From a virus (taxonomy: Duplodnaviria; Heunggongvirae; Uroviricota; Caudoviricetes), in IMG/VR virus record IMGVR_UViG_3300032213_000610, positions 64,001-104,873 of that record: a stretch of 40,873 nt of DNA, one strand, 5' to 3'. How positions within the stretch are numbered: the stretch's first letter is position 1; the number at the start of each line of letters is the position of its first letter. Below are positions 12,386 to 26,219 of the stretch, piece after piece. A program made the position numbers and the translations under genes. The notes beneath the pieces are model-generated. The model did no database searches and was not told the DNA's origin. It saw nothing but the letters and a program-made list of their open reading frames with translations.

Positions 12386-12874
12386 ATGTCTAACTTAGGA
12401 ACGTTTACAAGAACCAATAACAATCCTGATGTAATAAATCTTACATTACCAAACACAGGTCAAGATGGACAGCAGGGTATAAATGCACAATACAACATTT
12501 TTGAGAATAGATTCTATGGAGGAGATGTGTATATTCACTATAAAACTAACATTCCTTTTGGTGGTTGGAGTATGCATAATATAGAAGCTGTAGGATACAA
12601 CTATGGTAGAACTCAACCTATTAGATGTAACTGGGTGTTTCATGTATCTTATGGTAATGGGTTTTATCAAACAGAATTAAGTAATATATATTCAGGATTA
12701 GCTGCTAATAGATTATATAATTCAGGAGATGGTTATGTTGTATTTGTAGCAAGTTCTAATACAATGTATTACGCAGGATGGAGTATTAACGCATATAGCT
12801 TAAATCCAACAGGACCTTTTGATGTAAGTATACTTGCTGTAGCTCAATCAAGTAGTAACGCAAATGTTTATTAA
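12386..12874 (+). CDS. Fibre-associated Tyr/Gly-rich protein, paralog 1
   Basis: Motifs HYKTNI, IEAVGYNYG, IR and SGDGYV are shared with the next two ORFs; starts 2 nt after the fibre stop. Confidence 0.65.
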   Translation: MSNLGTFTRTNNNPDVINLTLPNTGQDGQQGINAQYNIFENRFYGGDVYIHYKTNIPFGGWSMHNIEAVGYNYGRTQPIRCNWVFHVSYGNGFYQTELSNIYSGLAANRLYNSGDGYVVFVASSNTMYYAGWSINAYSLNPTGPFDVSILAVAQSSSNANVY

Positions 12875-13303
12875 ATGCCAGTAAAATCAAACGCACCATT
12901 AAGTATTGGACCAGGCTTTCAACAGCGTGGTATAGCTAGTTATTGGGACTTTGGTTATTATGGTGAATATGTCCATATAAAAACAACTATAGCTCAACAG
13001 ACTTATATCATGCCAATGATTGAGTTAATTGGATATAACTATGGTGTAGCTGCTCCTATTAGAATGGCATTTGTAGTGTATACATATTCTTATTTAATAT
13101 CTGGATGGGAAAACGCATATAGTGGTGTAACAGGAAGTAGCGTATATATATCTGGAGATGGGTACATATGTTTAAGAGTGTACGCTGGTAGTATGTATTT
13201 TTGTGGGTTTTCTATGGACGCTTATTCTGTAGCAGGAAACGGTGCTCAGGTTGAGATTGGTGTATTAGCAATGGCAAATGGTGGTTCAGGTAACATTTAT
13301 TAA
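12875..13303 (+). CDS. Fibre-associated Tyr/Gly-rich protein, paralog 2
   Basis: HIKTTI, IELIGYNYG, SGDGYI; ends in NIY. Confidence 0.65.
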   Translation: MPVKSNAPLSIGPGFQQRGIASYWDFGYYGEYVHIKTTIAQQTYIMPMIELIGYNYGVAAPIRMAFVVYTYSYLISGWENAYSGVTGSSVYISGDGYICLRVYAGSMYFCGFSMDAYSVAGNGAQVEIGVLAMANGGSGNIY

Positions 13304-13305
13304 TT

Positions 13306-13776
13306 ATGAGAGTACAAAATTTAAATATATTACAGAACACAAATAGCTATGATGGAACCTTTATGCAATATAAAGGATTCTTTAAGTTCAACAGCTACGA
13401 TTGGAGTTCGAACTACCTTCACATGAAGACAAACATTAATACTGTTAACATGTGGATGATTGAAGCTGTAGGGTATAACTACTGTTATTATACAAAGATA
13501 AGAAGCACTTGGACCTTTCACTGGGATGGTGGAAATTTATACAATCGATCTTACAATCGTCTTGGAGGAGATAGTGGATGTAACCCAACAAATATATATA
13601 TGTCTAGTGATGGATATGTTGTGATAGTTGGGTATAGTGCATGTTGGGGATATTGTGGATTTATGTTAAATGGATACAATACAGCAGATATATATAATCA
13701 ATCTGGATTGAGTAATGATAGAACACCTCAGGTAACAGCATATGCTTTTTCAGGAGGTAATTCACCAATATATTAA
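13306..13776 (+). CDS. Fibre-associated Tyr/Gly-rich protein, paralog 3
   Basis: HMKTNI, IEAVGYNYC, SSDGYV; ends in PIY. Confidence 0.65.
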   Translation: MRVQNLNILQNTNSYDGTFMQYKGFFKFNSYDWSSNYLHMKTNINTVNMWMIEAVGYNYCYYTKIRSTWTFHWDGGNLYNRSYNRLGGDSGCNPTNIYMSSDGYVVIVGYSACWGYCGFMLNGYNTADIYNQSGLSNDRTPQVTAYAFSGGNSPIY

Positions 13777-13786
13777 AATCAATAAT

Positions 13787-14065
13787 ATGAATAACAAACG
13801 TTACAGAGATTTACAAGGAAACGTTCACTTAATGTGGCAAGGAGAACCTGACCCTACATGGGTGGAAGTTGAGGTTCCTGAAAACCTTCTTCCTGATCCT
13901 AATTTTGTTCCCCCTTATGGTGCAAGAAGACACAACTCTTATCCAGATGTGAAAGAACAATTGGATATGCTTTGGCATGAGATTAATAGTAATGGTAGTA
14001 TTTCAGCCAATGGTGATTGGTTTAATGCTATCAAAGAAGTAAAAGACACACATCCTAAACCTTAA
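13787..14065 (+). CDS. Small tail-fibre assembly/chaperone-like protein (92 aa)
   Basis: R..SYPDVKEQLDMLWH...WFNAIKEVKDTHPKP resembles the small proteins that commonly follow aquatic phage fibres. Start moved from 13742 to the ATG at 13787 (A-rich leader, no overlap). Confidence 0.6.
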   Translation: MNNKRYRDLQGNVHLMWQGEPDPTWVEVEVPENLLPDPNFVPPYGARRHNSYPDVKEQLDMLWHEINSNGSISANGDWFNAIKEVKDTHPKP

Positions 14066-14089
14066 TTTAAATATAAAAAAACAAGTAAT

Positions 14090-14440
14090 ATGTTACTAGC
14101 AAAAATTAGCCCAGCAGCTAAACAAATCGTACAAACCAGTCCTTTTGAATCAAGTGAAGTGACTGCTGAATATATGTCAGCATTAGCACGTCCTTATGCA
14201 TTAGGTGCATCAAAGGTTAACTTTGAAGTGGTATTTGGTAATTTAGTAGAATCACCTAAGCCTGGTTCTGAAGAATTAGTTCAACAATTTGTAAGAGTTA
14301 CAAACTCTCAAGTTGAATTAGTAGGTGAAGAACTAGCTTCTTGGGGCACTGATGATTCAGTTGTTCTTGATGCGATTGCTGCTAAATTAGGTACATCAGT
14401 TGTATCAACTTTAGTAGTTAATGAGCAGTTTGGATTCTAA
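14090..14440 (+). CDS. Hypothetical protein (116 aa), end of the tail-fibre module
   Basis: Clean ORF with an A-rich leader; no motif recognised. Confidence 0.6.
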   Translation: MLLAKISPAAKQIVQTSPFESSEVTAEYMSALARPYALGASKVNFEVVFGNLVESPKPGSEELVQQFVRVTNSQVELVGEELASWGTDDSVVLDAIAAKLGTSVVSTLVVNEQFGF

Positions 14441-14447
14441 AAATTAA

Positions 14448-14479
14448 TTTGGTTTTCTCGTATAGATGACATATCTTTG
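14448..14479 (+). promoter_or_regulatory. Bacteroidota promoter driving the glycosylation/sulfation operon
   Basis: TTTG (14448-14451), 20 nt, TATCTTTG (14472-14479); 16 nt upstream of the ATG at 14496. Confidence 0.75.
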
Positions 14480-14495
14480 CAGATAAACCAACATT

Positions 14496-15371
14496 ATGAA
14501 CATCATTTTCCAGATCAATGGGGGTATTGGTAAATGTATTCTTGCTACATCAATGTGCGAGGTTATACATCACCAATACCCTGATGATCAACTGATTGTA
14601 GTTAGTGGCTACCCTGAGGTGTTCTTGAACAACCCTTATGTTCACAGATCATTTGCTTTTGGTCAAGCTACTTATTTCTATCAGGATTATATAGAGAATA
14701 AGGAATTTGCTGTGTTTGCACACGATCCTTACGTGGATACGCACTACATTAGACAGAACGAACACCTTAGTCATACATGGACCAGGATGTTTGGTTTACC
14801 TGCTCCTGAGAATATAAAGCCACAAATCTACCTTACAGATAGAGAACGTCAGTTCTTTAGTAGTAAGTTTACTTCTGATAAGCCTGTATTTATAATGCAA
14901 ACTAATGGAGGTGCTGCAGGACAAGAACTTAAATACTCATGGGCTAGAGACATTCCAGCTAACACAGTGTTGAATGTTATAGAGGAATTCAGAAAGGATT
15001 ACAACATTGTTCACATAAGAAGGGAAGACCAAACAGCTTTCCCTGGAACAATCCCTGTAACAGATAACTTTAGAGCTTTGGCTGTATTGATAGAGCTAAG
15101 TGAGAAGAGATTGTTTATGGACAGTTTTGCACAACATGCAGCAGCTGGACTGGATAAACCTTCTACAGTGCTATGGATAGCTAACAGTCCTGTGGTATTT
15201 GGCTATGATATACATGATAATATCCTAGCTAACCCACACACAAAGAAACCTGAACTACGTAATGCATATTTTCAGAAGTTTGATATTGCAGGGAATCTAT
15301 TAGAGTTTCCTTACAATATGGAACATGATATATTCAACGTTGACAAAATAATCGCTTCTCTGAAAGCATAA
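14496..15371 (+). CDS. GT-B glycosyltransferase, GT9 (heptosyltransferase)-like
   Basis: N-terminal GGIGKCILAT, LIVVSGYPEVFLNNPYV, and C-terminal FMDSFAQHAAAGLDKPSTVLW, matching the GT9 GGxGD / xDSxxxHxAAAxxxP pattern. Confidence 0.65.
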   Translation: MNIIFQINGGIGKCILATSMCEVIHHQYPDDQLIVVSGYPEVFLNNPYVHRSFAFGQATYFYQDYIENKEFAVFAHDPYVDTHYIRQNEHLSHTWTRMFGLPAPENIKPQIYLTDRERQFFSSKFTSDKPVFIMQTNGGAAGQELKYSWARDIPANTVLNVIEEFRKDYNIVHIRREDQTAFPGTIPVTDNFRALAVLIELSEKRLFMDSFAQHAAAGLDKPSTVLWIANSPVVFGYDIHDNILANPHTKKPELRNAYFQKFDIAGNLLEFPYNMEHDIFNVDKIIASLKA

Positions 15372-15377
15372 CTACAT

Positions 15378-16196
15378 ATGGATAAAATATTCTATCAAAG
15401 CTCCTTGCCTAGATCTGGAAGTACATTGTTGCAAAACATCTTGGCTCAAAACCCTGATATATATGCAACCCCTACAAGCGGTGTTCTTGAACTCATATTT
15501 GGAGCAAGAGCAAACTACACAACTAACCCAGAGTTCAAAGCACAAGATGCTGAACTAATGAAGAAGGGTTGGCAAGCTTTTGCTAAAGCTGGTATGGACG
15601 CTTTCTACAATGCTATTACAGATAAGAAATATGTTGTAGATAAGAGTAGAGGATGGGGCATACATTATGACTTCCTAAACTTTGTACAGGGAGAACCAAA
15701 GATTATATGCATGGTGAGAGATCCGCGTGATATCTTTGCTTCTATGGAGAACAACTTTAGAAAGCATCCAGAGAAACAATCTGATATATTAGATTGGTCT
15801 AAAGGTCAAGGAACAACAGTTCCTAAGAGAATAGACATCTGGGCACAGAGTCCTCCTGTAGGTCTGGCTTTTGAAAGACTCTCTGAGATATTTAGAATGG
15901 GTATAGATAGCAAGATGTTGTTTGTAAGGTTTGAAGACTTATGTCTCTATCCTGATACAGAGATGATTAGGATATATGAATACCTTGGTATCCCTCACTA
16001 CAAACACGACTTTGATCATATTGAACAAGTTACTAAAGAGGATGATGAAGTGTATGGTACATTTGGTGACCACACTATTAGAACCAAGCTTGAACCTGTT
16101 CCTTCTAGAGCTAAGCAACTATTAGGTAAGGATGTGACAGATTGGATTTATACTAACTACGAATGGTTCTATAAAACATTTAGATATACAAAATGA
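15378..16196 (+). CDS. PAPS-dependent sulfotransferase
   Basis: 5'-PSB loop SLPRSGSTLLQNIL, 3'-PB motif MVRDPRDIFAS, and VRFEDL...IYEYLG. Confidence 0.85.
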   Translation: MDKIFYQSSLPRSGSTLLQNILAQNPDIYATPTSGVLELIFGARANYTTNPEFKAQDAELMKKGWQAFAKAGMDAFYNAITDKKYVVDKSRGWGIHYDFLNFVQGEPKIICMVRDPRDIFASMENNFRKHPEKQSDILDWSKGQGTTVPKRIDIWAQSPPVGLAFERLSEIFRMGIDSKMLFVRFEDLCLYPDTEMIRIYEYLGIPHYKHDFDHIEQVTKEDDEVYGTFGDHTIRTKLEPVPSRAKQLLGKDVTDWIYTNYEWFYKTFRYTK

Positions 16197-16804
16197 TAAA
16201 CTCATTCTTTGATAAGATATTTTACATCAATCTAAAAAGAGATGTAGAAAGGAATGATTACATGATTAATCAATTCAAAGAGTTTGGTATAACTAATTAT
16301 GAAAGGTTTGAAGCTATAGAATGTACACAGGTGCCTGACAAACATATATGGAGAAACTTTAACAAACAGGATGATAAGTATATTAAAGGATCTGTTGGAT
16401 GTAGAGAATCTCATGTAGGTGTATTAAAGCTTGCTAAAGAAAGAGACTATAAGTTTGTAATGATTCTTGAAGATGATGTAAAGATACTTACAGACCTAAG
16501 TGGTATATTAAAAGAGAATAACCTTCAAATAGGTATGGCTGACATGCTTTATTTTGGAGGAATGGTAGAAACTCGATACAGAGGACAAGTTGTTGGAGCT
16601 TATGCTTATGCTGTTAGGAACACATTATTTGATGATATATTAAATATGGCTGTTCCTTCTGGTATGGAGATAGATAACTTCTATGCTAAGGTTATACAAC
16701 ACATGAGCTATAATAATAACATAACTGGTAGATATAACGCACTTATGTTACGACCAGCAAACACAATAATAGTAAATCAAACATTTAATTCAAATATACG
16801 ATAA
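16193..16804 (+). CDS. Glycosyltransferase family 25-like
   Basis: KIFYINLKRDVER...RFEAI...GCRESH...MILEDD, the typical GT25 motif order. Confidence 0.8.
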   Translation: MINSFFDKIFYINLKRDVERNDYMINQFKEFGITNYERFEAIECTQVPDKHIWRNFNKQDDKYIKGSVGCRESHVGVLKLAKERDYKFVMILEDDVKILTDLSGILKENNLQIGMADMLYFGGMVETRYRGQVVGAYAYAVRNTLFDDILNMAVPSGMEIDNFYAKVIQHMSYNNNITGRYNALMLRPANTIIVNQTFNSNIR

Positions 16805-17256
16805 TGATAGTAGTACTATTTGGACAGCCTCACTCAGGCAAAACTACATTAGCCCATAAGCTAGAAATTGAAGAACTATATGACTATCATATAGACGGAG
16901 ATCAGCTGAGAACTATGTTTAAGAATAAAAACTATAGTAAAGAAGGTAGAATAAACAACCTTAATAGAGCTAGTGACATTGCTACATTCCTACATTACAA
17001 CGGTAATGATGTGATAATGTCTGTAGTGTATCCTTACAAAGAAGCTAGAGACTATTTAAATAGCCTGGTTCCTGATGTACTCTGGGTGTATCTACATTAT
17101 AAAGAGGAAAGAGGAAGAGAAGAGTTCCATGTAAAGGACTTTGAATTCCCCTACCTAGAAGAGAAAGTGTTACAACTAAATACATCAAACCTATCAATTG
17201 AAGACTGCGTTACTAAAATTCAAAACTACATAAATGAAAATTCTAGCAAAGGGTAA
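16804..17256 (+). CDS. cysC: Adenylyl-sulfate (APS) kinase-like P-loop kinase, compact
   Basis: MIVVLFGQPHSGKTT, IDGDQLR and YSKEGRINN follow the CysC pattern GLSGSGKST / LDGDxxR / FSxxxRxxN. Flanked by a sulfotransferase and DUF2061. Confidence 0.75.
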   Translation: MIVVLFGQPHSGKTTLAHKLEIEELYDYHIDGDQLRTMFKNKNYSKEGRINNLNRASDIATFLHYNGNDVIMSVVYPYKEARDYLNSLVPDVLWVYLHYKEERGREEFHVKDFEFPYLEEKVLQLNTSNLSIEDCVTKIQNYINENSSKG

Positions 17257-17617
17257 TGGTAATGGAAGTGGACATGCAATGTTCATTGGTAGATGGCAAC
17301 CATGGCACAAAGGTCATAGGTGGTTAATAGACCAAGCATTAAATGAAGGAAAGAATGTACTTCTCTGTATAAGAGATGTTCCTACAGATGAGAAGAATCC
17401 TTGGTCTGCTATTCAGGTGATGATGAATCTAACAGAAGAATTAATAGATCTTATTGAGGAAGGAAGAGTGAGACTCATGATTATACCTGATATTGAATCT
17501 ATTAATATTGGTAGGGGTATTGGTTACGATGTTATAGAACACACACCTCCCCAAGATATACACGATATATCTGCTACACAAATTAGAGAACAAATGAAAG
17601 CTGAAGGTAAGCTCTAA
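17234..17617 (+). CDS. HxGH nucleotidyltransferase (cytidyltransferase-like); candidate minimal ATP sulfurylase
   Basis: FIGRWQPWHKGH (HxGH) and C-terminal ISATQIRE (SxTxIR) motifs; overlaps the cysC-like gene. Confidence 0.7.
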   Translation: MKILAKGNGNGSGHAMFIGRWQPWHKGHRWLIDQALNEGKNVLLCIRDVPTDEKNPWSAIQVMMNLTEELIDLIEEGRVRLMIIPDIESINIGRGIGYDVIEHTPPQDIHDISATQIREQMKAEGKL

Positions 17618-17823
17618 TGGTAGGAACCAAAAGACACATAGCAAAAACTATAAGTTACAGAATCATAAGCACAGGAATCGGATTCCTTCTTATGTGGATA
17701 GCAACAGGCAGTATCAAGATAGGTGCTGCATTCAGTGTTGCTGAACTAACATACAAGCCTTTTGTATATTTTATCCATGAACGTGTTTGGTATAAATGGA
17801 TTAAATACGGAATAAAGAAATAA
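17617..17823 (+). CDS. DUF2061-like small membrane protein
   Basis: RHIAKTISYRIIST...YFIHERVWYK fits the DUF2061 pattern (RSxxKTxSWR...YYxHERxW), a family often linked to cysC. Confidence 0.75.
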   Translation: MVGTKRHIAKTISYRIISTGIGFLLMWIATGSIKIGAAFSVAELTYKPFVYFIHERVWYKWIKYGIKK

Positions 17824-17843
17824 CAACCTCCTTTTTTAACTAC

Positions 17844-17879
17844 ATAGCATATTCTCCCTAAAAGGGAAGGGTATGCTAT
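17844..17879 (+). terminator. Long hairpin closing the sulfation operon
   Basis: ATAGCATA-TTCTCCCT / AGGGAAGGG-TATGCTAT pairs with G-U wobbles and one bulge; the following U-tract is weak. Confidence 0.45.
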
Positions 17880-17896
17880 TGTCATTTATTAAACAA

Positions 17897-18190
17897 ATGA
17901 AACAACCTATTGAAAACTTTAAAGTTTGGATTTTCCCTAGCCTAGTATCTATTCTAGCTATGATGATTTGGAATGATGTCAGTGAAATCAAAGCTGATGT
18001 AAAAGCCCTCATGGCTCAGTCTAATGTAGACAAAACACGTATAGACAATCTAGAGAGGCTCATCTATAAGAAGACAGCTTCTATTCCTGTTGATTTACCT
18101 AATAGAGACTTAGAGATGGAAAGCTATGCCATCCTACCTAATAATAGAAAAACAATTAAAAACGAAAAACATGAAGAAATTCTTTTCTGA
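17897..18190 (+). CDS. Single-TM plus coiled-coil protein, holin/hemolysin-like lysis component
   Basis: N-terminal hydrophobic WIFPSLVSILAMMIW followed by a coiled coil. Start moved to 17897. Confidence 0.5.
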   Translation: MKQPIENFKVWIFPSLVSILAMMIWNDVSEIKADVKALMAQSNVDKTRIDNLERLIYKKTASIPVDLPNRDLEMESYAILPNNRKTIKNEKHEEILF

Positions 18191-18422
18191 TCTATTTGAT
18201 GACAGCAACTCAATCAATGAGAAAGCTGTAATTGGCTTTGCCTCTTTTTTAATTATGATAGTGTTTGCTATAACAGATATTGTTACAGGAGCTATGAATA
18301 AACCATTGTTAGTTAATGAGTTTATATATGACTCATTTAAAATCTTGACTATAGCTTGTTTTGGAATTGCTTCTGTAGACAAGTTTATTAACAAGAAATC
18401 TGAATCTGAAACTAATGAATAG
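18171..18422 (+). CDS. Putative holin (2 TM, 83 aa)
   Basis: Two hydrophobic helices and a charged C-terminus, upstream of the endolysin. Start moved to 18171. Confidence 0.6.
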   Translation: MKKFFSDLFDDSNSINEKAVIGFASFLIMIVFAITDIVTGAMNKPLLVNEFIYDSFKILTIACFGIASVDKFINKKSESETNE

Positions 18423-19020
18423 AATATTAATACTTTTTATAGTTATATTACTGTTTATAATTTTAACTAAGGATAGATCATGTAATTCTCCTAAGATAGA
18501 ACCTACTGTTGTAACAGTGCATGATACAGCTTGGGAAGTTCATGACTCATTGATTATCAAGAAGTTAAAGATTAAGGAGACAATATATGAAACTATTCAA
18601 ACTCCTCCAGAGTATATAGCTGACACATCCTATCCTAGGCTCAAAGAACAATATGATTCATTAGTTGTTGCCTACCTGGCAAAGAACATCTATGCTGATA
18701 CATTGAAGCTAGACACATTAGGATATGTAGCTATAGCTGATACATTACAGAAAAACAGCTTACAGAATAGATCTTATAAATACAACTATAAGATACCTAC
18801 TATCCATACAACTACAACCATTACTAAATATGCCCCCCTTAAGAATCAATTGTATATAGGCGGTGGTGTAGGTGGTAACAAAGCATCAGGTGTTACAAAT
18901 TTAAATGCTGGACTACTCTTCAAGACTAAGAAGGATCATATTTATAGTGTGATAGTTGGTACAAACGTTGAAGGTCAAATAAACTATGGCTTTCAAACAT
19001 TTTGGAAACTCAAAAAATAA
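18415..19020 (+). CDS. N-terminally membrane-anchored lysis accessory/spanin-like protein
   Basis: Hydrophobic N-terminus, DTV/DSL-type stalk and C-terminal amphipathic beta-strands; directly before the endolysin. Confidence 0.45.
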   Translation: MNRILILFIVILLFIILTKDRSCNSPKIEPTVVTVHDTAWEVHDSLIIKKLKIKETIYETIQTPPEYIADTSYPRLKEQYDSLVVAYLAKNIYADTLKLDTLGYVAIADTLQKNSLQNRSYKYNYKIPTIHTTTTITKYAPLKNQLYIGGGVGGNKASGVTNLNAGLLFKTKKDHIYSVIVGTNVEGQINYGFQTFWKLKK

Positions 19021-21023: not shown

Positions 21024-22007
21024 ATGGCAATACCAAGTAGACAGATAGGCTGGGGCACAGAAGAAAATCTTTTGTGGCAGATTTCTAAACAATTAGAAGC
21101 TCTTACAGGAGTGACATATAATAGTGGAGGTGGTGGTATTGTAGGTCCTCAAGGACCTATTGGTCCTCAGGGTCCACAAGGAATACAAGGTGTGCAAGGT
21201 GTGCAAGGTGAAACTGGTGCAGCCCTAACTGTACTTGGTTCCTATCCTGACTTAACAGCATTCTTAGCAGGTGCTGGTGGAAGTCCTGGTACTGCAGGTA
21301 CAGCATGGATAATTGAATCAGATGGTTCTTTATACGTTTGGAATACAGCAACTAATGCTTGGGAAGATGTAGGTGATCTACAAGGACCTCAGGGCATTCA
21401 AGGTATTCAAGGCCCTCAAGGAGAGCAAGGTATACAAGGTGTACAGGGTATTCAAGGAATTCAGGGAATTCAAGGAGTACAAGGTGCAATGGGTGTTTCT
21501 GGTTTATACGCTCAAACAGCTAACAGTGCTATTGTTACAAATACAACGGCTGAAACAACAATTATTGGTACAGGAGTTGGTACATTAAGTGTACCTGCTA
21601 ATGGATTTAGTGTTGGTGATAGCTTTAGAGCAGTTCTTGGTGGTGTTATGAATGCTGGAAATAATCAAACTATTAGAATTAAATTAAAATCAGGATCTGT
21701 TATTCTTCTAGATAGTGGCTTACAAAACCTTGGAAGTGCTGTTACAGATGATGTGTGGAGTCTAAATGTTGATTTTACAATCAGACAACTTGGAGCTGCT
21801 AGTGTAGCATCTATTGTATCGTTAGGATCATTTCATTACACAAAGACTAATAATGCTTCTGTTCAAGGATTTGGATTTAATGTAGTGAACAACACAACGT
21901 TTAGCACTACAATTAGTAATACATTAGACGTAACTGTTCAGTGGGGATCTGCTAGTACAGGAAACAATATTTATAGTGATACATTTATACTAAACAAAAC
22001 ATATTAA
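21024..22007 (+). CDS. Collagen-like decoration/spike protein with an N-terminal MAIPSRQIGW anchor
   Basis: Two G-X-Y tracts (GPQGPIGPQG..., QGIQGIQGPQG...) and a beta-rich C-terminal domain. Confidence 0.75.
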   Translation: MAIPSRQIGWGTEENLLWQISKQLEALTGVTYNSGGGGIVGPQGPIGPQGPQGIQGVQGVQGETGAALTVLGSYPDLTAFLAGAGGSPGTAGTAWIIESDGSLYVWNTATNAWEDVGDLQGPQGIQGIQGPQGEQGIQGVQGIQGIQGIQGVQGAMGVSGLYAQTANSAIVTNTTAETTIIGTGVGTLSVPANGFSVGDSFRAVLGGVMNAGNNQTIRIKLKSGSVILLDSGLQNLGSAVTDDVWSLNVDFTIRQLGAASVASIVSLGSFHYTKTNNASVQGFGFNVVNNTTFSTTISNTLDVTVQWGSASTGNNIYSDTFILNKTY

Positions 22008-22183: not shown

Positions 22184-22888
22184 ATGAGTTTAACTGCTTA
22201 CATAAGATATGATAATAAGGGAAGGATTGTTCCAGGTGGACCAATAGTAACTTCAGTTAAACCTAAGGTGGGTGACTGGGTAGCTATTAGTGACGTTCTT
22301 GTTACAACCACCCCTCCCAACTATAAACTACGTGCATTCGTTAGATATATAAATAAAATAGGTGGTCAAAATAACAGCAACAAATATGTAGCTGGTAGCT
22401 TAATCCTTCAACATGATGCTCCTCAGGATGGTAATTGGAAAGAGGTTTATTTCATAAAGCCTTGTGAGTCTTGTAATCCAACAACAACCACCACCACAAC
22501 AGATTCTTTTCAAACAATAAATTTATATAGTAATGGTGTAATATGTGGAGTAGGTACAGATTGGTCAACAAAAACACCAGCTGAAGTAAAATGTGATTGG
22601 ATTGAAGTATTTAATAGTGGTAGTCCTAGCTATGGCGGAAGTTCGTTCTTATACTATACATCTGCAGGATTTAATGTAGGAACACAAATATATAATACAA
22701 CTCCTGGAAATCCTCCTGTTACATTTAGTGGTACTTACATATATGATTTAGGCGGTCCTTATTTAAATGCAAAAGTGTTTACATTAACAACTGGTATCAT
22801 CTCTGCAATATATAATCTTGGTGATTTACCTGCATGTTCACCTTATATTTGTCCTACAACCACTACAACTACAACTGCTACACCGTAA
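22184..22888 (+). CDS. Decoration-type protein with two copies of anchor B and two T7 tracts
   Basis: AYIRYDNKGRIVPGGP..KPKVGDW and LRAFVRY..YVAGSLIL..GNWKEV; CNP-T7 and C-terminal CP-T7-ATP. Confidence 0.65.
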   Translation: MSLTAYIRYDNKGRIVPGGPIVTSVKPKVGDWVAISDVLVTTTPPNYKLRAFVRYINKIGGQNNSNKYVAGSLILQHDAPQDGNWKEVYFIKPCESCNPTTTTTTTDSFQTINLYSNGVICGVGTDWSTKTPAEVKCDWIEVFNSGSPSYGGSSFLYYTSAGFNVGTQIYNTTPGNPPVTFSGTYIYDLGGPYLNAKVFTLTTGIISAIYNLGDLPACSPYICPTTTTTTTATP

Positions 22889-22917
22889 ATAAAACAAAAC
22901 CAACAAAAACTACATAT

Positions 22918-23934
22918 ATGAAGGATCTCAGATTTATCTGTGCTCAACCAGATGATACCTATTACACATGGCAGGTACATTTATGGATAGAGAGCTTAAG
23001 GAAAATTGGACATTCAGACAAGGCAATTGTGCTTATATTCATTCCTAGTTATAGGGAGAAGAATACCAAATGGCAGCAAGTGATAGACCTCTATCCAGAA
23101 GCTGAATTTGTATTCTATAAAGATGAGCACAGCATTAGCAACATGTTAGGAGTTTATATTCCTGTGTTACGTCCTTATTGTCTGAAAAGATATTTTGCAG
23201 AGAATCCAGGGATGAAAGATAAAGCTGTTATGTATTGTGATTCAGACGTAGTGTTTACAGAGAATCTAAACATAGATGCTTATCTGGATGATGATATAAA
23301 CTATGTATCTGATACAAACAGTTATATCAATGCTTCATATTTTGATAGTAAGGTGAGAGATGTAAAGCCTGAAAAGCTTGAGTTGTACAAAACTAGAGAC
23401 ATTCTAGCTGAAACAGCAGAGTTTACAGGCATAACTAGAGAGATAGCTGAGGCTAACAATTTACATTCAGGAGGAGCTCAATACCTATTAAAGAACATCG
23501 ATAGTGATTTCTGGGATAAGGTGTTGCAAGATTGTTTGGTAATTAGAACACATTTACTAAACGTAAACAAAGAATTCTTCGAGAATGAAAATAAAGGCTT
23601 TCAAAGTTGGTGTGCTGATATGTGGGCTGTTCTCTGGGCTATTTGGTATAGGAAACAAGAAGCAAAGATTATTCCTGAAATGGATTTTGCTTGGTCTTCT
23701 GATCCAATTGAGAAAATAAAGAGAATGGGACTCCTACATAATGCAGGAATTGTTGGTGATGAAGCCAATGGGTATCCTGCTTTCTATAAAGGAAAGTATC
23801 ACACAGGACAAGATCCTTTTGATGATCCTCATATGCAAACAGTTATGAATAATGAACAGAGCCAAAAGTTCTGCACACACTATTATACATCACAACTGAT
23901 GGAATTAAGAGAAAAATACAAATTATTATATTAA
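22918..23934 (+). CDS. GT-A glycosyltransferase (338 aa), candidate protein O-glycosyltransferase
   Basis: DxD motif YCDSDVVF, YIPVLRP, GGAQYLLK and WCADMWAVLW. The layout recalls GT8/GT95/GT96-type enzymes. Start moved to 22918. Confidence 0.6.
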   Translation: MKDLRFICAQPDDTYYTWQVHLWIESLRKIGHSDKAIVLIFIPSYREKNTKWQQVIDLYPEAEFVFYKDEHSISNMLGVYIPVLRPYCLKRYFAENPGMKDKAVMYCDSDVVFTENLNIDAYLDDDINYVSDTNSYINASYFDSKVRDVKPEKLELYKTRDILAETAEFTGITREIAEANNLHSGGAQYLLKNIDSDFWDKVLQDCLVIRTHLLNVNKEFFENENKGFQSWCADMWAVLWAIWYRKQEAKIIPEMDFAWSSDPIEKIKRMGLLHNAGIVGDEANGYPAFYKGKYHTGQDPFDDPHMQTVMNNEQSQKFCTHYYTSQLMELREKYKLLY

Positions 23935-23949
23935 ACAAAAACGATTATT

Positions 23950-24441
23950 ATGAGTAATAAGAGAGACTTAAGAGCCTTTGTTCGCTTTGATGGAAGCGGA
24001 AGAATCGTTGCTGGTAGCTTAATCCTTAGGAAAAATAAACCTAAGGTGGGTAAATGGCATGAAATTCAAGCATACGAATGTTGTAATTACATTCCTTCAT
24101 CTACAACAACAACTACTAGTTCTACAAGTAGCACAACAACTACTACTACAACAGTAGCTCCTACAACAACAACAACTACCACTGCATTTGTTGGTACATA
24201 TTATAATGCAGACCTTGGTTTTCAAGCAGCTTGTAACCAAGCAGGTTCATATAGCCTACCTCTAATTGTTGATCCAAATGCTTGTTCAAATGGAGGAATA
24301 GTATTAGCTGTTGGAACATATGCAGATTATGGAATACCTAATAATTCTGTAATTTACATTAATCTTCAAAACGGTAATGTTATTGAAGTGCAAACATTTG
24401 GAAGTTCTCAAATGAGCTTTGGATGTACATCTTGTGGATAA
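23950..24441 (+). CDS. Decoration-type protein: anchor B, long Ser/Thr tract, small C-terminal domain
   Basis: LRAFVRFDGSGRIVAGSLILRKNKPKVGKWHEIQAYECCN then SSTTTTTSSTSSTTTTTTTVAPTTTTTTT. Confidence 0.7.
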   Translation: MSNKRDLRAFVRFDGSGRIVAGSLILRKNKPKVGKWHEIQAYECCNYIPSSTTTTTSSTSSTTTTTTTVAPTTTTTTTAFVGTYYNADLGFQAACNQAGSYSLPLIVDPNACSNGGIVLAVGTYADYGIPNNSVIYINLQNGNVIEVQTFGSSQMSFGCTSCG

Positions 24442-26187: not shown

Positions 26188-26219
26188 TTTGGTAGATATT
26201 GCAGAAATACATATCTTTG
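26188..26219 (+). promoter_or_regulatory. Bacteroidota promoter for the basic-protein cluster
   Basis: TTTG (26188-26191), 20 nt, TATCTTTG (26212-26219); same AATTTGG-N19-ATATCTTTG layout as 14448. Confidence 0.75.

What the first reader, a model, noticed from the sequence alone, without database searches (positions are those of the whole stretch)
14448..17879. Self-contained phage operon that could make its own PAPS and build a sulfated glycan
Seen: six tightly packed or overlapping genes (GT9-like, sulfotransferase, GT25, APS-kinase-like, HxGH nucleotidyltransferase, DUF2061). They have their own consensus promoter (14448-14479) and a closing hairpin, and sit in the late/virion arm between the tail fibre and lysis. 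Established: sulfotransferases need PAPS, which is made by ATP sulfurylase (Sat type belongs to the HxGH nucleotidyltransferase superfamily) and then APS kinase. Inference: this is a complete sulfate to APS to PAPS to sulfated-sugar route used to decorate virion proteins. That contrasts with reading cysC as an auxiliary gene boosting host sulfur assimilation; no PAPS reductase is present here, and a PAPS consumer is adjacent. Virion glycosylation is known in mycobacteriophages, but I know of no characterised phage pathway for sulfating a virion glycan.
Basis: partly seen in the sequence, partly recalled or inferred. Interest (0 to 1): 0.88.

Follow-up and report, generated by a model that had tools for sequence, protein, structure and literature searches.

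The report
Phage sulfation cassette with mini PAPS synthase
A freshwater crAss-like phage carries, between its giant tail-fibre gene and its lysis genes, a six-gene operon that most likely makes its own activated sulfate (PAPS) using a tiny, uncharacterised enzyme in place of ATP sulfurylase, and uses it with a sulfotransferase and two sugar transferases on a target that is still unknown.

Summary
Six packed, same-strand genes lie at 14496-17823, behind a Bacteroidota-type promoter and before a stable hairpin, between a 2483-aa fibre gene and a GH19 endolysin.

The genes are a GT9-fold glycosyltransferase (shown by structure only), a sulfotransferase with intact PAPS motifs, a GT25, a lid-less APS-kinase homolog, a 127-aa HxGH nucleotidyltransferase (NT) and DUF2061.

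The PAPS-supply reading is well supported by comparison, not by biochemistry:
- Kinase and NT are neighbours in 57 of 59 dereplicated related loci.
- Elsewhere the NT is fused to canonical APS kinases in both orders.
- One relative has an NT-DUF2061 fusion, and DUF2061 sits beside cysD in Flavobacteriales.
- 13 of 14 Marinimicrobia genomes with the pair have no Sat or CysD hit, and the five checked have a sulfotransferase 1-4 kb from the NT.

The NT is not a Sat-type enzyme. It is closest to NMNAT and PPAT.

Only five of the six genes travel together, because GT25 is variable. The acceptor (virion fibre, host envelope glycan or protein tyrosine) is unresolved, and the sulfotransferase is closest to tyrosylprotein sulfotransferases.

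This scan has noted the same module before in at least 31 other genomes. I found no paper describing it.

The parts
14448..14479 (+). Bacteroidota-type promoter, TTTG-N20-TAtcTTTG, 17 nt upstream of the first ATG
   Evidence: Sequence read. In the motif scan the window has 6 sites against 1.5 expected; this site and 26188-26219 are intergenic on the + strand and share ACATATCTTTG. In two metatranscriptome runs no contig lies on 13700-14504 while contigs lie on 14505 onward; this is a weak hint only.
14496..15371 (+). GT-B glycosyltransferase of GT9 fold (291 aa); donor and acceptor unknown
   Evidence: No Pfam or NCBIfam hit. AF2 model pLDDT 86. Foldseek PDB: 3tov E 3e-12, WaaF 1psw 2e-10, WaaC, and TibC 4rap 5e-7 with rmsd about 3.7-4.1. 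Homologs accompany the sulfotransferase in 20 of 21 clusters.
15378..16196 (+). PAPS-dependent sulfotransferase (272 aa), TPST/NoeE-like
   Evidence: PF13469 E 7e-20 and PF00685 E 2e-14; NoeE model E 3e-11. The 5'-PSB motif P11-R-S-G-S-T16 and the 3'-PB residues R114, D115 and S122 are invariant in 20 homologs. The family profile hits TPST1 at 2.4e-10 as the best solved chain.
16193..16804 (+). GT25 glycosyltransferase (203 aa) with E93-D-D95; a variable member of the cassette
   Evidence: PF01755 E 2.7e-15. Best solved relative is Mimivirus R655, 2.7e-6. A homolog is present in 1 of 43 related clusters with enough flank.
16804..17256 (+). Short, lid-less APS-kinase homolog (150 aa)
   Evidence: PF01583 E 1.6e-12 on profile positions 4-106 of 152. 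All 21 PDB sequence hits are APS kinases. It keeps the P-loop, D31-G-D33, R36, R49, P77, R103 and E114, and lacks about 14 aa of the canonical lid.
17234..17617 (+). 127-aa HxGH nucleotidyltransferase; candidate minimal ATP sulfurylase
   Evidence: PF01467 E 8e-6; PF01747 only E 0.019. AF2 model pLDDT 91. Structural matches: NMNAT Z 10.6, PPAT 10.2, Thermus Sat 8.2. The family has 1065 cluster representatives. It is fused to canonical APS kinases in both orders and lies next to a kinase in 57 of 59 clusters.
17617..17823 (+). DUF2061 small membrane protein (68 aa); accessory to sulfate activation
   Evidence: PF09834 E 4e-15. It follows the NT in 46 of 58 clusters. It is fused to the NT in P0183. 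In 11 of 13 Flavobacteriales genomes a DUF2061 gene lies within 1.3 kb of cysD.
17842..17882 (+). Stable hairpin at the end of the operon; overlaps the start codon of the next ORF
   Evidence: -19.8 kcal/mol, z -3.8, and 0 of 200 shuffles fold as well. It has no U-tract and is not called by the terminator scan.
14090..14440 (+). 116-aa virus-only protein just upstream of the promoter; a recurrent neighbour of the sulfotransferase/GT9 pair
   Evidence: tblastn homologs (35-84% identity) lie directly upstream of the pair in at least 13 related loci. No family hit.

Best explanation
This is a late, fibre-adjacent phage operon that makes the sulfate donor and spends it on the spot.

Inferred steps:
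1. The 127-aa NT adenylylates sulfate (ATP + sulfate gives APS + PPi).
2. The short APS-kinase homolog phosphorylates the 3'-OH of APS to give PAPS.
3. DUF2061, a small predicted membrane protein, is an accessory of this sulfate-activating pair, perhaps holding it at the membrane.
4. The sulfotransferase passes the sulfate to an acceptor that the GT9-fold and GT25 enzymes glycosylate.

The acceptor is not known. From the position behind a fibre gene, the phage's own fibre or virion proteins are my first guess, at about 35-40%.

Shown here: gene identities, intact motifs, conserved linkage, fusions, and the lack of detected canonical ATP sulfurylase in cellular carriers.

Inferred: every enzymatic activity and the acceptor.
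For: 1. The kinase belongs to the APS-kinase family. PF01583 scores 48 bits against a 21.1 cut-off, all 21 PDB hits are APS kinases, and the P-loop, DGDxxR and other invariant residues are kept.
2. The kinase lies immediately upstream of the NT in 57 of 59 dereplicated loci, viral and cellular.
3. NT homologs are fused to full-length canonical APS kinases (E 1e-40 to 1e-69) in both domain orders. One such fusion sits in a phage contig and is followed by DUF2061.
4. Of 251 Marinimicrobia genomes, 14 carry the NT. None of the 14 has CysD, and only the one with the most divergent NT has Sat. Each has a single APS-kinase gene; it lies beside the NT where placed, and in two genomes it is a canonical one. 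In all five checked, a Sulfotransfer_5 gene lies 1-4 kb from the NT, and a normal NadD lies elsewhere.
5. DUF2061 is linked to sulfate activation independently: an NT-DUF2061 fusion and adjacency to cysD in 11 of 13 Flavobacteriales genomes.
6. The NT keeps the nucleotide-binding residues of its superfamily (R20, H25, H28, S113, T115, R118). It also has two family-specific, nearly invariant arginines, R47 and R94.
7. The sulfotransferase has invariant PAPS-binding motifs and is the only one found in the phage record, which has no PAPS-reductase-family hit.
8. The sulfotransferase and GT9-like genes co-occur in 20 of 21 clusters next to the module.
Against: - No activity has been measured for any member of this NT family, and I found no paper on it.
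- The NT is closest to NMNAT and PPAT in sequence and fold, fails the Sat model (14.8 against 24.3 bits) and lacks Sat's QxRN motif.
- The kinase has lost part of the lid that canonical enzymes have, and it scores far below the NCBIfam equivalog cut-off.
- About half of the related loci show no sulfotransferase within reach. Two near-complete phage genomes with kinase + NT have no Sulfotransfer_1 or Sulfotransfer_3 hit at all. In those phages the module sits by carbamoyltransferase, QueC, a DNA methylase or a clamp loader.
- The cellular genomes used for the missing-gene argument are small, were selected only for at least 80% completeness, and probably form one clade.
- Nothing tested here identifies the acceptor.
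Confidence: 0.62

Rival explanations
1. Same chemistry, different target. The cassette remodels a host envelope glycan (LPS or LOS core, or capsule) late in infection. This could block superinfection or stop progeny from sticking to debris, rather than decorating virions.
For: GT9 (WaaC/WaaF) and GT25 are classical LPS/LOS-core families, and the best fold hits for gene 1 include LPS heptosyltransferases. The cellular kinase-NT pair sits in a capsule locus with Wzi, a Wza-like exporter and a sulfotransferase. DUF2061 points to the membrane.
Against: The cassette lies directly behind fibre genes in a lytic-looking crAss-like phage. In 11 of 20 related clusters a same-strand ORF of at least 680 aa lies upstream, but this count has no control. 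TibC, a protein heptosyltransferase, superposes at lower rmsd than the LPS enzymes.
Confidence: 0.3
2. The sulfotransferase is a protein-tyrosine sulfotransferase that sulfates tyrosines of phage (fibre) or host proteins. In this reading the sulfate does not go onto a glycan, and the glycosyltransferases act separately.
For: The family profile finds TPST1 and TPST2 as the best solved relatives (2.4e-10 and 2e-6), ahead of carbohydrate sulfotransferases (heparan sulfate 3-OST at 0.06). Its 5'-PSB motif reads PRSGST, which from memory is the TPST-type wording. Three Tyr-rich paralogs that each end in Tyr lie just upstream.
Against: The NoeE (sugar sulfotransferase) model hits equally well, E 3e-11. 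The TPST match covers only the PAPS-binding half, residues 7-124. The tight coupling to the GT9-like gene, 20 of 21 clusters, suggests a shared glycan substrate.
Confidence: 0.2
3. The NT is not an ATP sulfurylase. It makes NAD (as an NMNAT) or a nucleotide sugar for the glycosyltransferases. The phage kinase simply turns host-made APS into PAPS.
For: The best sequence and structure matches are NMNAT and NadM, and JGI names some homologs NMNAT. A Bacteroidota host would probably have CysDN: 13 of 13 Flavobacteriales genomes tested had cysD.
Against: The NT aligns to only 110 of 164 NMNAT residues and lacks about 40 aa of its second half. Five carrier genomes have a separate NadD. 13 of 14 carrier genomes have no detected source of APS for their only APS kinase. 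Fusion to APS kinase in both orders is hard to explain for an NAD or sugar enzyme. Relatives with a sugar-nucleotide insert already carry a second CTP_transf_like gene plus PfkB and an epimerase.
Confidence: 0.15
4. The kinase-NT-DUF2061 unit is an auxiliary metabolic module that boosts host sulfur assimilation (PAPS for the host's CysH). Its position beside the sulfotransferase here is incidental.
For: Many relatives carry the unit without a detectable sulfotransferase, in replication or nucleotide-metabolism regions. Cultured Xylella, Stenotrophomonas and Xanthomonas phages carry the fusion in their early region.
Against: In this phage the unit is co-oriented and overlapping with a PAPS consumer, under one promoter, in the late region, with no PAPS-reductase hit in the record. 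In 21 of 43 informative clusters the same sulfotransferase type is adjacent.
Confidence: 0.1

Closest known systems
Bifunctional PAPS synthases and Sat-CysC pairs (human PAPSS1/2, Aquifex aeolicus Sat/APS kinase 2gks, CysN/CysC)
   Same: An adenylyl-transferring enzyme of the HxGH superfamily is coupled to, or in homologs fused with, an APS kinase. The proposed two-step chemistry, sulfate to APS to PAPS, is the same.
   Different: The transferase here is 127 aa with no PUA-like domain, no QxRN motif and no Sat-model hit. It is nearer to NMNAT and PPAT. The kinase lacks part of the lid. A DUF2061 membrane protein is a third conserved partner. No activity has been shown.
Archaeal NMN adenylyltransferase (1f9a, 1ej2) and NadM
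   Same: Best structural and sequence match: Z 10.6 at 28% identity. It shares the GRxQPxHxGH and (I)SxTxxR motifs.
   Different: It is about 40 residues shorter and aligns to 110 of 164 residues. It has extra invariant arginines (R47, R94). It is always next to or fused with an APS kinase, and carrier genomes have their own NadD.
PPAT + dephospho-CoA kinase (CoaD/CoaE; mammalian CoA synthase fusion)
   Same: The logic is the same, from general knowledge: an HxGH adenylyltransferase followed by a P-loop kinase that phosphorylates the adenosine 3'-OH, sometimes fused. PPAT is the second-best fold match (Z 10.2).
   Different: The kinase here is of the APS-kinase family, not CoaE. The context is sulfotransferases, not CoA synthesis.
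Phage- and virus-encoded virion glycosylation (mycobacteriophage capsid/tail glycosylation; Mimivirus fibril glycans), recalled from the literature and not read here
   Same: Glycosyltransferase genes sit among late or structural genes. The best solved relative of the GT25 here is Mimivirus R655.
   Different: No sulfate-activation or sulfotransferase step is known to me in those systems. Virion modification is not shown here.
TibC/Aah autotransporter heptosyltransferases and WaaC/WaaF LPS heptosyltransferases (GT9)
   Same: Gene 1 has the GT9 GT-B fold (E 3e-12 to 5e-7).
   Different: No Pfam GT9 hit. It has only two cysteines, so by my reading it has no TibC-type iron-finger. It is 291 aa against about 320-400. 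The donor sugar is unknown.

Membership tests
APS kinase (CysC, PF01583 / TIGR00455) | Pfam model above its gathering score | tested here: met
   48.2 bits against 21.1, E 1.6e-12, but only profile positions 4-106 of 152.
APS kinase (CysC, PF01583 / TIGR00455) | Walker A P-loop and the DGDxxR motif | tested here: met
   G7-x4-G12-K13-T-T15; D31-G-D33 and R36 are invariant or nearly invariant in the alignment with canonical domains.
APS kinase (CysC, PF01583 / TIGR00455) | Full lid segment (KGLYKKARAGEIKxFTGID) | tested here: not met
   About 14 residues are deleted in the window's kinase and in the other short-type kinases; canonical fusion partners keep them.
APS kinase (CysC, PF01583 / TIGR00455) | NCBIfam equivalog cut-off | tested here: not met
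   TIGR00455 scores 46.6 bits against a 138.7 cut-off.
APS kinase (CysC, PF01583 / TIGR00455) | Phosphorylates APS to PAPS | not testable with these tools
   Needs an enzyme assay or cysC complementation.
Sat-type ATP sulfurylase (PF01747) | Pfam model above its gathering score | tested here: not met
   14.8 bits against 24.3, E 0.019.
Sat-type ATP sulfurylase (PF01747) | HxxH motif preceded by QxRN (motif wording from memory) | tested here: not met
   H25-K-G-H28 is present, but the preceding residues read G-R-W-Q-P, the NMNAT-type wording.
Sat-type ATP sulfurylase (PF01747) | PUA-like N-terminal domain and a catalytic domain of about 200 aa (from memory) | tested here: not met
   The whole protein is 127 aa and is a single Rossmann-like core.
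Sat-type ATP sulfurylase (PF01747) | Fold nearest to Sat catalytic domains | tested here: inconclusive
   Sat chains do match (1v47 Z 8.2, 2gks 6.6, 1r6x 6.2) but rank below NMNAT (10.6) and PPAT (10.2).
Sat-type ATP sulfurylase (PF01747) | Forms APS from ATP and sulfate | not testable with these tools
   Only context supports it.
NMN adenylyltransferase (archaeal / NadM type) | GRxQPxHxGH and SxTxxR motifs | tested here: met
   G19-R-W-Q-P-W-H-K-G-H28; S113, T115 and R118.
NMN adenylyltransferase (archaeal / NadM type) | NCBIfam model cut-offs | tested here: not met
   Best is PRK01153 at 35.6 bits against 127, and TIGR01527 at 30 against 181.
NMN adenylyltransferase (archaeal / NadM type) | Full-length core including the second half of the protein | tested here: not met
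   110 of 164 residues align with 1f9a. HMMER aligns only residues 15-90, and about 40 aa are missing before the C-terminal motif.
NMN adenylyltransferase (archaeal / NadM type) | Needed for, or linked to, NAD genes | tested here: not met
   Five carrier genomes have a canonical NadD elsewhere (E about 1e-53). The NT always lies beside an APS kinase.
Sulfotransferase (PF13469 / PF00685) | Pfam gathering scores and PAPS-binding 5'-PSB and 3'-PB motifs | tested here: met
   72.7 against 27 and 54.1 against 22 bits. P11-R-S-G-S-T16 and R114, D115, S122 are invariant in 20 homologs.
Glycosyltransferase family 25 (PF01755) | Pfam gathering score; acidic DxD-like motif | tested here: met
   57.2 against 24 bits, profile positions 2-137 of 199. 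E93-D-D95 is seen in the sequence.
Glycosyltransferase family 9 (PF01075) | Pfam model hit | tested here: not met
   No family at E up to 0.1. Among look-alike Atlas clusters, one carries PF01075 on 15% of its members.
Glycosyltransferase family 9 (PF01075) | GT-B fold nearest to GT9 structures | tested here: met
   The top 31 Foldseek rows are GT9 enzymes (3tov, 1psw, WaaC, TibC) apart from one unrelated chain (9grx), E 3e-12 to 4e-5.
DUF2061 (PF09834) | Pfam gathering score | tested here: met
   56.4 against 23.1 bits, covering profile positions 1-51 of 52.

The most novel reading that the evidence does not exclude
The 127-aa NT would be the founding member of a third, minimal class of ATP sulfurylase, after Sat and CysDN. 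Together with a lid-less APS kinase and the DUF2061 membrane protein it would form a compact PAPS synthase that is widespread in phages and in streamlined marine bacteria. This crAss-like phage would use it to put sulfate on glycans or tyrosines of its own tail fibres. That would be a virion modification not described for any phage.
Probability: 0.25. Interest if true: 0.85.

Novelty: new variant of a known kind. Interest (0 to 1): 0.72.

Why it matters
- If the NT makes APS, sulfate activation has an unrecognised third enzyme solution. It would be small enough to be missed by every annotation pipeline, which now label it 'cytidyltransferase' or 'NMNAT'.
- That would change how sulfur assimilation and sulfation capacity are read from genomes. 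For example, streamlined Marinimicrobia that look unable to activate sulfate nevertheless carry sulfotransferases in capsule loci.
- For phage biology it would show that phages bring a complete donor-plus-transferase kit for sulfation. This modification strongly alters charge and receptor or immune recognition, and it has not been described on phage particles or as a phage-directed change of the host surface.
- The family is large: 3789 hits in the 90%-clustered protein collection and 1065 representatives at 50% identity.
- Cultured Xylella, Stenotrophomonas and Xanthomonas phages carry the fused form, so the enzyme question can be tested directly.

Tried and rejected
- DNA similarity to GenBank phages: no match.
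- Complex prediction on kinase + NT: no verdict (score 0.00). This counts neither for nor against binding.
- Pfam on the apparent DUF2061 parts of P0239 and P0263: no hit. My own HMM confirms P0183 clearly and P0263 only weakly (E 0.007), and it does not detect P0239. I therefore claim one fusion, not three.
- Foldseek on the NT gave no ATP sulfurylase in its top 50. The wider VIA search did list several at Z 5.6-8.2.
- Intrinsic-terminator scan: no site in 13700-18500.
- Sigma-70-type promoter scan: fewer sites than in shuffles. The Bacteroidota consensus is the relevant one.
- Paper searches found nothing on this module: 'DUF2061'; phage + sulfotransferase + APS kinase; ATP sulfurylase + APS kinase + cytidylyltransferase; a search on sulfotransferase, viral genomes, auxiliary metabolic and PAPS; crAss-like + sulfotransferase.
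- Atlas look-ups for gene 1, the sulfotransferase and the 116-aa upstream protein gave only virus clusters with no telling name.
- Metatranscriptome contigs lie on parts of the operon with 1-3 mismatches per 151-270 nt. They are contigs from RNA libraries that may hold DNA, coverage is patchy, and gaps prove nothing. I use them only as a weak hint.
- The count of large ORFs upstream of related cassettes has no control and is only suggestive.
- I considered reading the NT as the heptose-1-P adenylyltransferase for the GT9-like enzyme. I rejected this because relatives with a PfkB/epimerase insert already have a second, separate CTP_transf_like gene.

Full report
**What is there.** The window is the right-hand 40.9 kb of a 104,873-bp IMG/VR virus record that is about 91% complete. 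Earlier notes of this scan identify it as an environmental crAss-like phage; I did not re-test that. Near-identical DNA is held mainly by freshwater metagenomes from several studies.

Pfam gives:
- Sulfotransfer_3/Sulfotransfer_1 for 15378-16196;
- Glyco_transf_25 for 16193-16804;
- APS_kinase for 16804-17256;
- CTP_transf_like for 17234-17617;
- DUF2061 for 17617-17823;
- nothing for 14496-15371.

I folded the first gene from 24 homologs (pLDDT 86). Its best solved matches are GT9 enzymes: 3tov at E 3e-12, then WaaF, WaaC and the protein heptosyltransferase TibC. 'GT9-like' is therefore right at the level of fold.

**Boundaries and position.** The sequence at 14448-14479 is TTTG-N20-TAtcTTTG, the Bacteroidota -33/-7 promoter consensus. 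The window holds six such sites against 1.5 expected. This one and a near-twin at 26188-26219 are the two that lie intergenic on the coding strand.

The hairpin after DUF2061 (17842-17882) is stable: -19.8 kcal/mol, z -3.8. It has no U-tract and overlaps the next start codon, so it may or may not terminate transcription.

Upstream lies a 2483-aa protein that ends in the Peptidase_S74 fibre-chaperone domain. Downstream lies a GH19 endolysin. The record has no PAPS-reductase-family hit and only this one sulfotransferase.

**The core is a three-gene unit.** I fetched 80 viral and 6 cellular loci that encode a relative of the NT. After dereplication at 95% nucleotide identity there are 59 clusters.
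- A homolog of the kinase lies beside the NT in 57. The other two are cut at the contig end.
- DUF2061 follows in 46 of 58 with enough downstream sequence.
- The window's type of sulfotransferase is present in 21 of 43 clusters with enough upstream sequence.
- The GT9-like gene is present in 21 of 43, and the two occur together in 20.
- GT25 is present in 1 of 43.

The cassette is therefore modular. It has an almost invariant kinase-NT(-DUF2061) unit, a tightly coupled sulfotransferase/GT9 pair in about half of the relatives, and variable extras.

The carriers include phages of other types, for example contigs with sheath and baseplate genes. The NT is unusually conserved, at 60-93% identity where the kinase is 35-85%.

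**Is the kinase an APS kinase?** All 21 solved chains that it hits are APS kinases. It keeps the P-loop, DGDxxR and further invariant residues (R49, P77, R103, E114). It lacks about 14 residues of the canonical lid, and it scores below the NCBIfam equivalog cut-off. It is a derived, short member of the family.

The same NT family is also paired or fused with full-length canonical APS kinases, so the short and canonical kinases occupy the same place in the module.

**Is the NT the missing ATP sulfurylase?** By family membership, no.
- The Sat model scores below threshold.
- The motif before HxGH is the NMNAT wording.
- The best sequence matches are archaeal NMNATs.
- The confident model (pLDDT 91) is nearest to NMNAT (Z 10.6), PPAT (10.2) and NadM (10.0). 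Sat catalytic domains score lower, at 8.2 to 5.6.

By context, the case is strong.
1. A search of 1.8 billion cluster representatives found 1065 relatives. Many are fusions of 250-380 aa. The ones I scanned are APS kinase + NT in both orders, with kinase E-values down to 1e-69.
2. In a sample of 251 Marinimicrobia genomes, 14 small genomes carry the NT. None has CysD. Only the one with the most divergent NT has Sat. Each has a single APS-kinase gene. Where I could place it (nine of the 14), it lies beside the NT, and in two genomes it is a canonical one.
3. In NT-free genomes of the same phylum, many APS-kinase domains sit in 550-690-aa reading frames, the size of Sat or CysN fusions. I did not scan those frames for the partner domain.
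4. In the five carriers I checked, a Sulfotransfer_5 gene lies 1-4 kb from the NT. In L089 the locus also holds Wzi and a Wza-like exporter. A normal NadD exists elsewhere, so the NT is not needed for NAD.

An APS kinase and a sulfotransferase with no other detectable source of APS make the adjacent adenylyltransferase the obvious candidate.

The NT keeps the nucleotide-binding residues of its superfamily. It adds two nearly invariant arginines, R47 and R94. I note these as candidates for binding an anion, but I could not test that.

**DUF2061.** It belongs to the same theme by independent evidence. One homolog (P0183) is an NT-DUF2061 fusion, E 1.4e-13 against my HMM. In 11 of 13 Flavobacteriales genomes with a strong DUF2061 hit, that gene lies within 1.3 kb of cysD, the canonical ATP-sulfurylase subunit. 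Its role is unknown. A membrane tether or a link to sulfate uptake is a guess.

**The consumer and the acceptor.** The sulfotransferase has invariant 5'-PSB and 3'-PB PAPS-binding motifs. Its profile is closest to tyrosylprotein sulfotransferases among solved structures, 2.4e-10 over the PAPS-binding half only. It also hits the Nod-factor sugar sulfotransferase NoeE at 3e-11. The acceptor class is therefore open.

GT9 and GT25 are, by general knowledge, LPS/LOS-core families. However, GT9 also includes protein heptosyltransferases (TibC), and GT25 includes collagen galactosyltransferases. The best solved relative of this GT25 is a Mimivirus enzyme.

The phage encodes proteins that could in principle be modified:
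- a collagen-repeat protein;
- several proteins with long poly-Thr/Ser tracts;
- three Tyr-rich paralogs just upstream of the cassette.

None of this shows modification. Position behind a fibre gene favours a virion target slightly. In 11 of 20 related clusters a same-strand ORF of at least 680 aa lies upstream, but that count has no control. A host-envelope target remains a serious rival.

**Limits.**
- No member of the NT family has been assayed, and my paper searches found nothing on it.
- Roughly half of the related loci have no sulfotransferase within reach. Two near-complete phage genomes with the unit show no Sulfotransfer_1 or Sulfotransfer_3 hit. Their unit sits by a carbamoyltransferase, QueC, a DNA methylase or a clamp loader.
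- Cultured Xylella, Stenotrophomonas and Xanthomonas phages carry the fused form in their early region. The unit may therefore also serve as a general sulfate-activation gene set.
- The Marinimicrobia carriers are probably one clade and are not closed genomes.
- Short contigs from two metatranscriptome studies match parts of the operon almost exactly, and none lies on 13700-14504. These are contigs from libraries that can hold DNA, so this is only a weak hint of transcription from the predicted promoter.

**Verdict.** The phage very probably carries its own route to PAPS and a PAPS-dependent sulfotransferase in one late operon, with a non-canonical, NMNAT-like enzyme standing in for ATP sulfurylase. 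Whether the product is a sulfated glycan on the virion is untested.

This scan has reached the same reading on other DNA before, with 34 notes in at least 31 genomes. Those notes gave me the TibC and TPST leads, which I then tested here.

Noticed in passing
window 14090-14440: A 116-aa virus-only protein with no family hit lies just upstream of the cassette's promoter. Homologs (35-84% identity) sit directly upstream of the sulfotransferase/GT9 pair in at least 13 related loci. It may be a further member of the cassette or its acceptor.
   Followed up: partly
window 12386-13776: Three adjacent paralogous small proteins (162, 142 and 156 aa) lie directly after the giant fibre gene. They are Tyr- and Gly-rich, share motifs such as GYNYG and SGDGY, and each ends in a C-terminal Tyr. 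No Pfam hit. They could be fibre-tip or adaptor proteins and possible sulfation targets.
   Followed up: no
window 21024-22007 and 22184-24441; genome 25848-39119: There is a collagen-repeat protein (Pfam Collagen, E 2.5e-10) and several proteins with long poly-Thr/Ser tracts, of up to 40 residues. These are candidate O-glycosylation substrates. The GT25 family also includes collagen galactosyltransferases.
   Followed up: partly
L005 5114-8426 (also L035, L043, L044, L071): In one group of relatives a 2.5-kb insert splits the kinase from the NT. In L005 the called genes of the insert are a cupin, a 100-aa ORF, a second CTP_transf_like gene, a PfkB kinase and an RmlD-like epimerase. This looks like a nucleotide-heptose-type donor pathway for the GT9-like enzyme.
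   Followed up: partly
L089 2862-12963 (Marinimicrobia, 643-kb contig): A cellular capsule-type locus contains Sulfotransfer_5, an M1 peptidase, Wzi, a short APS kinase, the NT, PfkB, a histidine phosphatase, a Wza-like exporter and an epimerase. The genome has no Sat or CysD hit.
   Followed up: yes
Flavobacteriales genomes G278, G288, G294, G296, G299, G303, G305, G310, G319, G328, G331: DUF2061 genes, sometimes as tandem pairs, lie 0.1-1.3 kb from cysD. DUF2061 therefore looks like an unrecognised accessory of canonical sulfate activation as well.
   Followed up: partly
L010, L031, L062, L064, L075: In relatives without a sulfotransferase, the kinase-NT-DUF2061 unit sits next to a NodU/CmcH-type carbamoyltransferase, DUF6734, a clamp loader with a PD-(D/E)XK nuclease, a DNA methylase, or QueC.
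   Followed up: partly
L001 (Xylella phage Salvo) 792-1487 and 4989-5735: Salvo gp32, annotated 'kinase', is a short APS kinase + NT fusion. A gene annotated as cysteine dioxygenase lies about 3.5 kb upstream. The same fusion occurs in other cultured phages of Xylella, Stenotrophomonas, Xanthomonas and Clavibacter.
   Followed up: partly
window 26188-26219: A second intergenic Bacteroidota-type promoter site shares the -7 region ACATATCTTTG with the cassette's promoter.
   Followed up: no
window 13742-14065: A 107-aa ORF overlaps the end of the preceding gene by 35 nt. Its C-terminal 50 residues hit several PHROGs of unknown function (phrog_1787, E 7e-13).
   Followed up: no
P0178 and P0262: These are NT homologs of about 375 aa with a long Cys-rich N-terminal region and no Pfam hit. 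This is another fusion architecture of the NT family.
   Followed up: no
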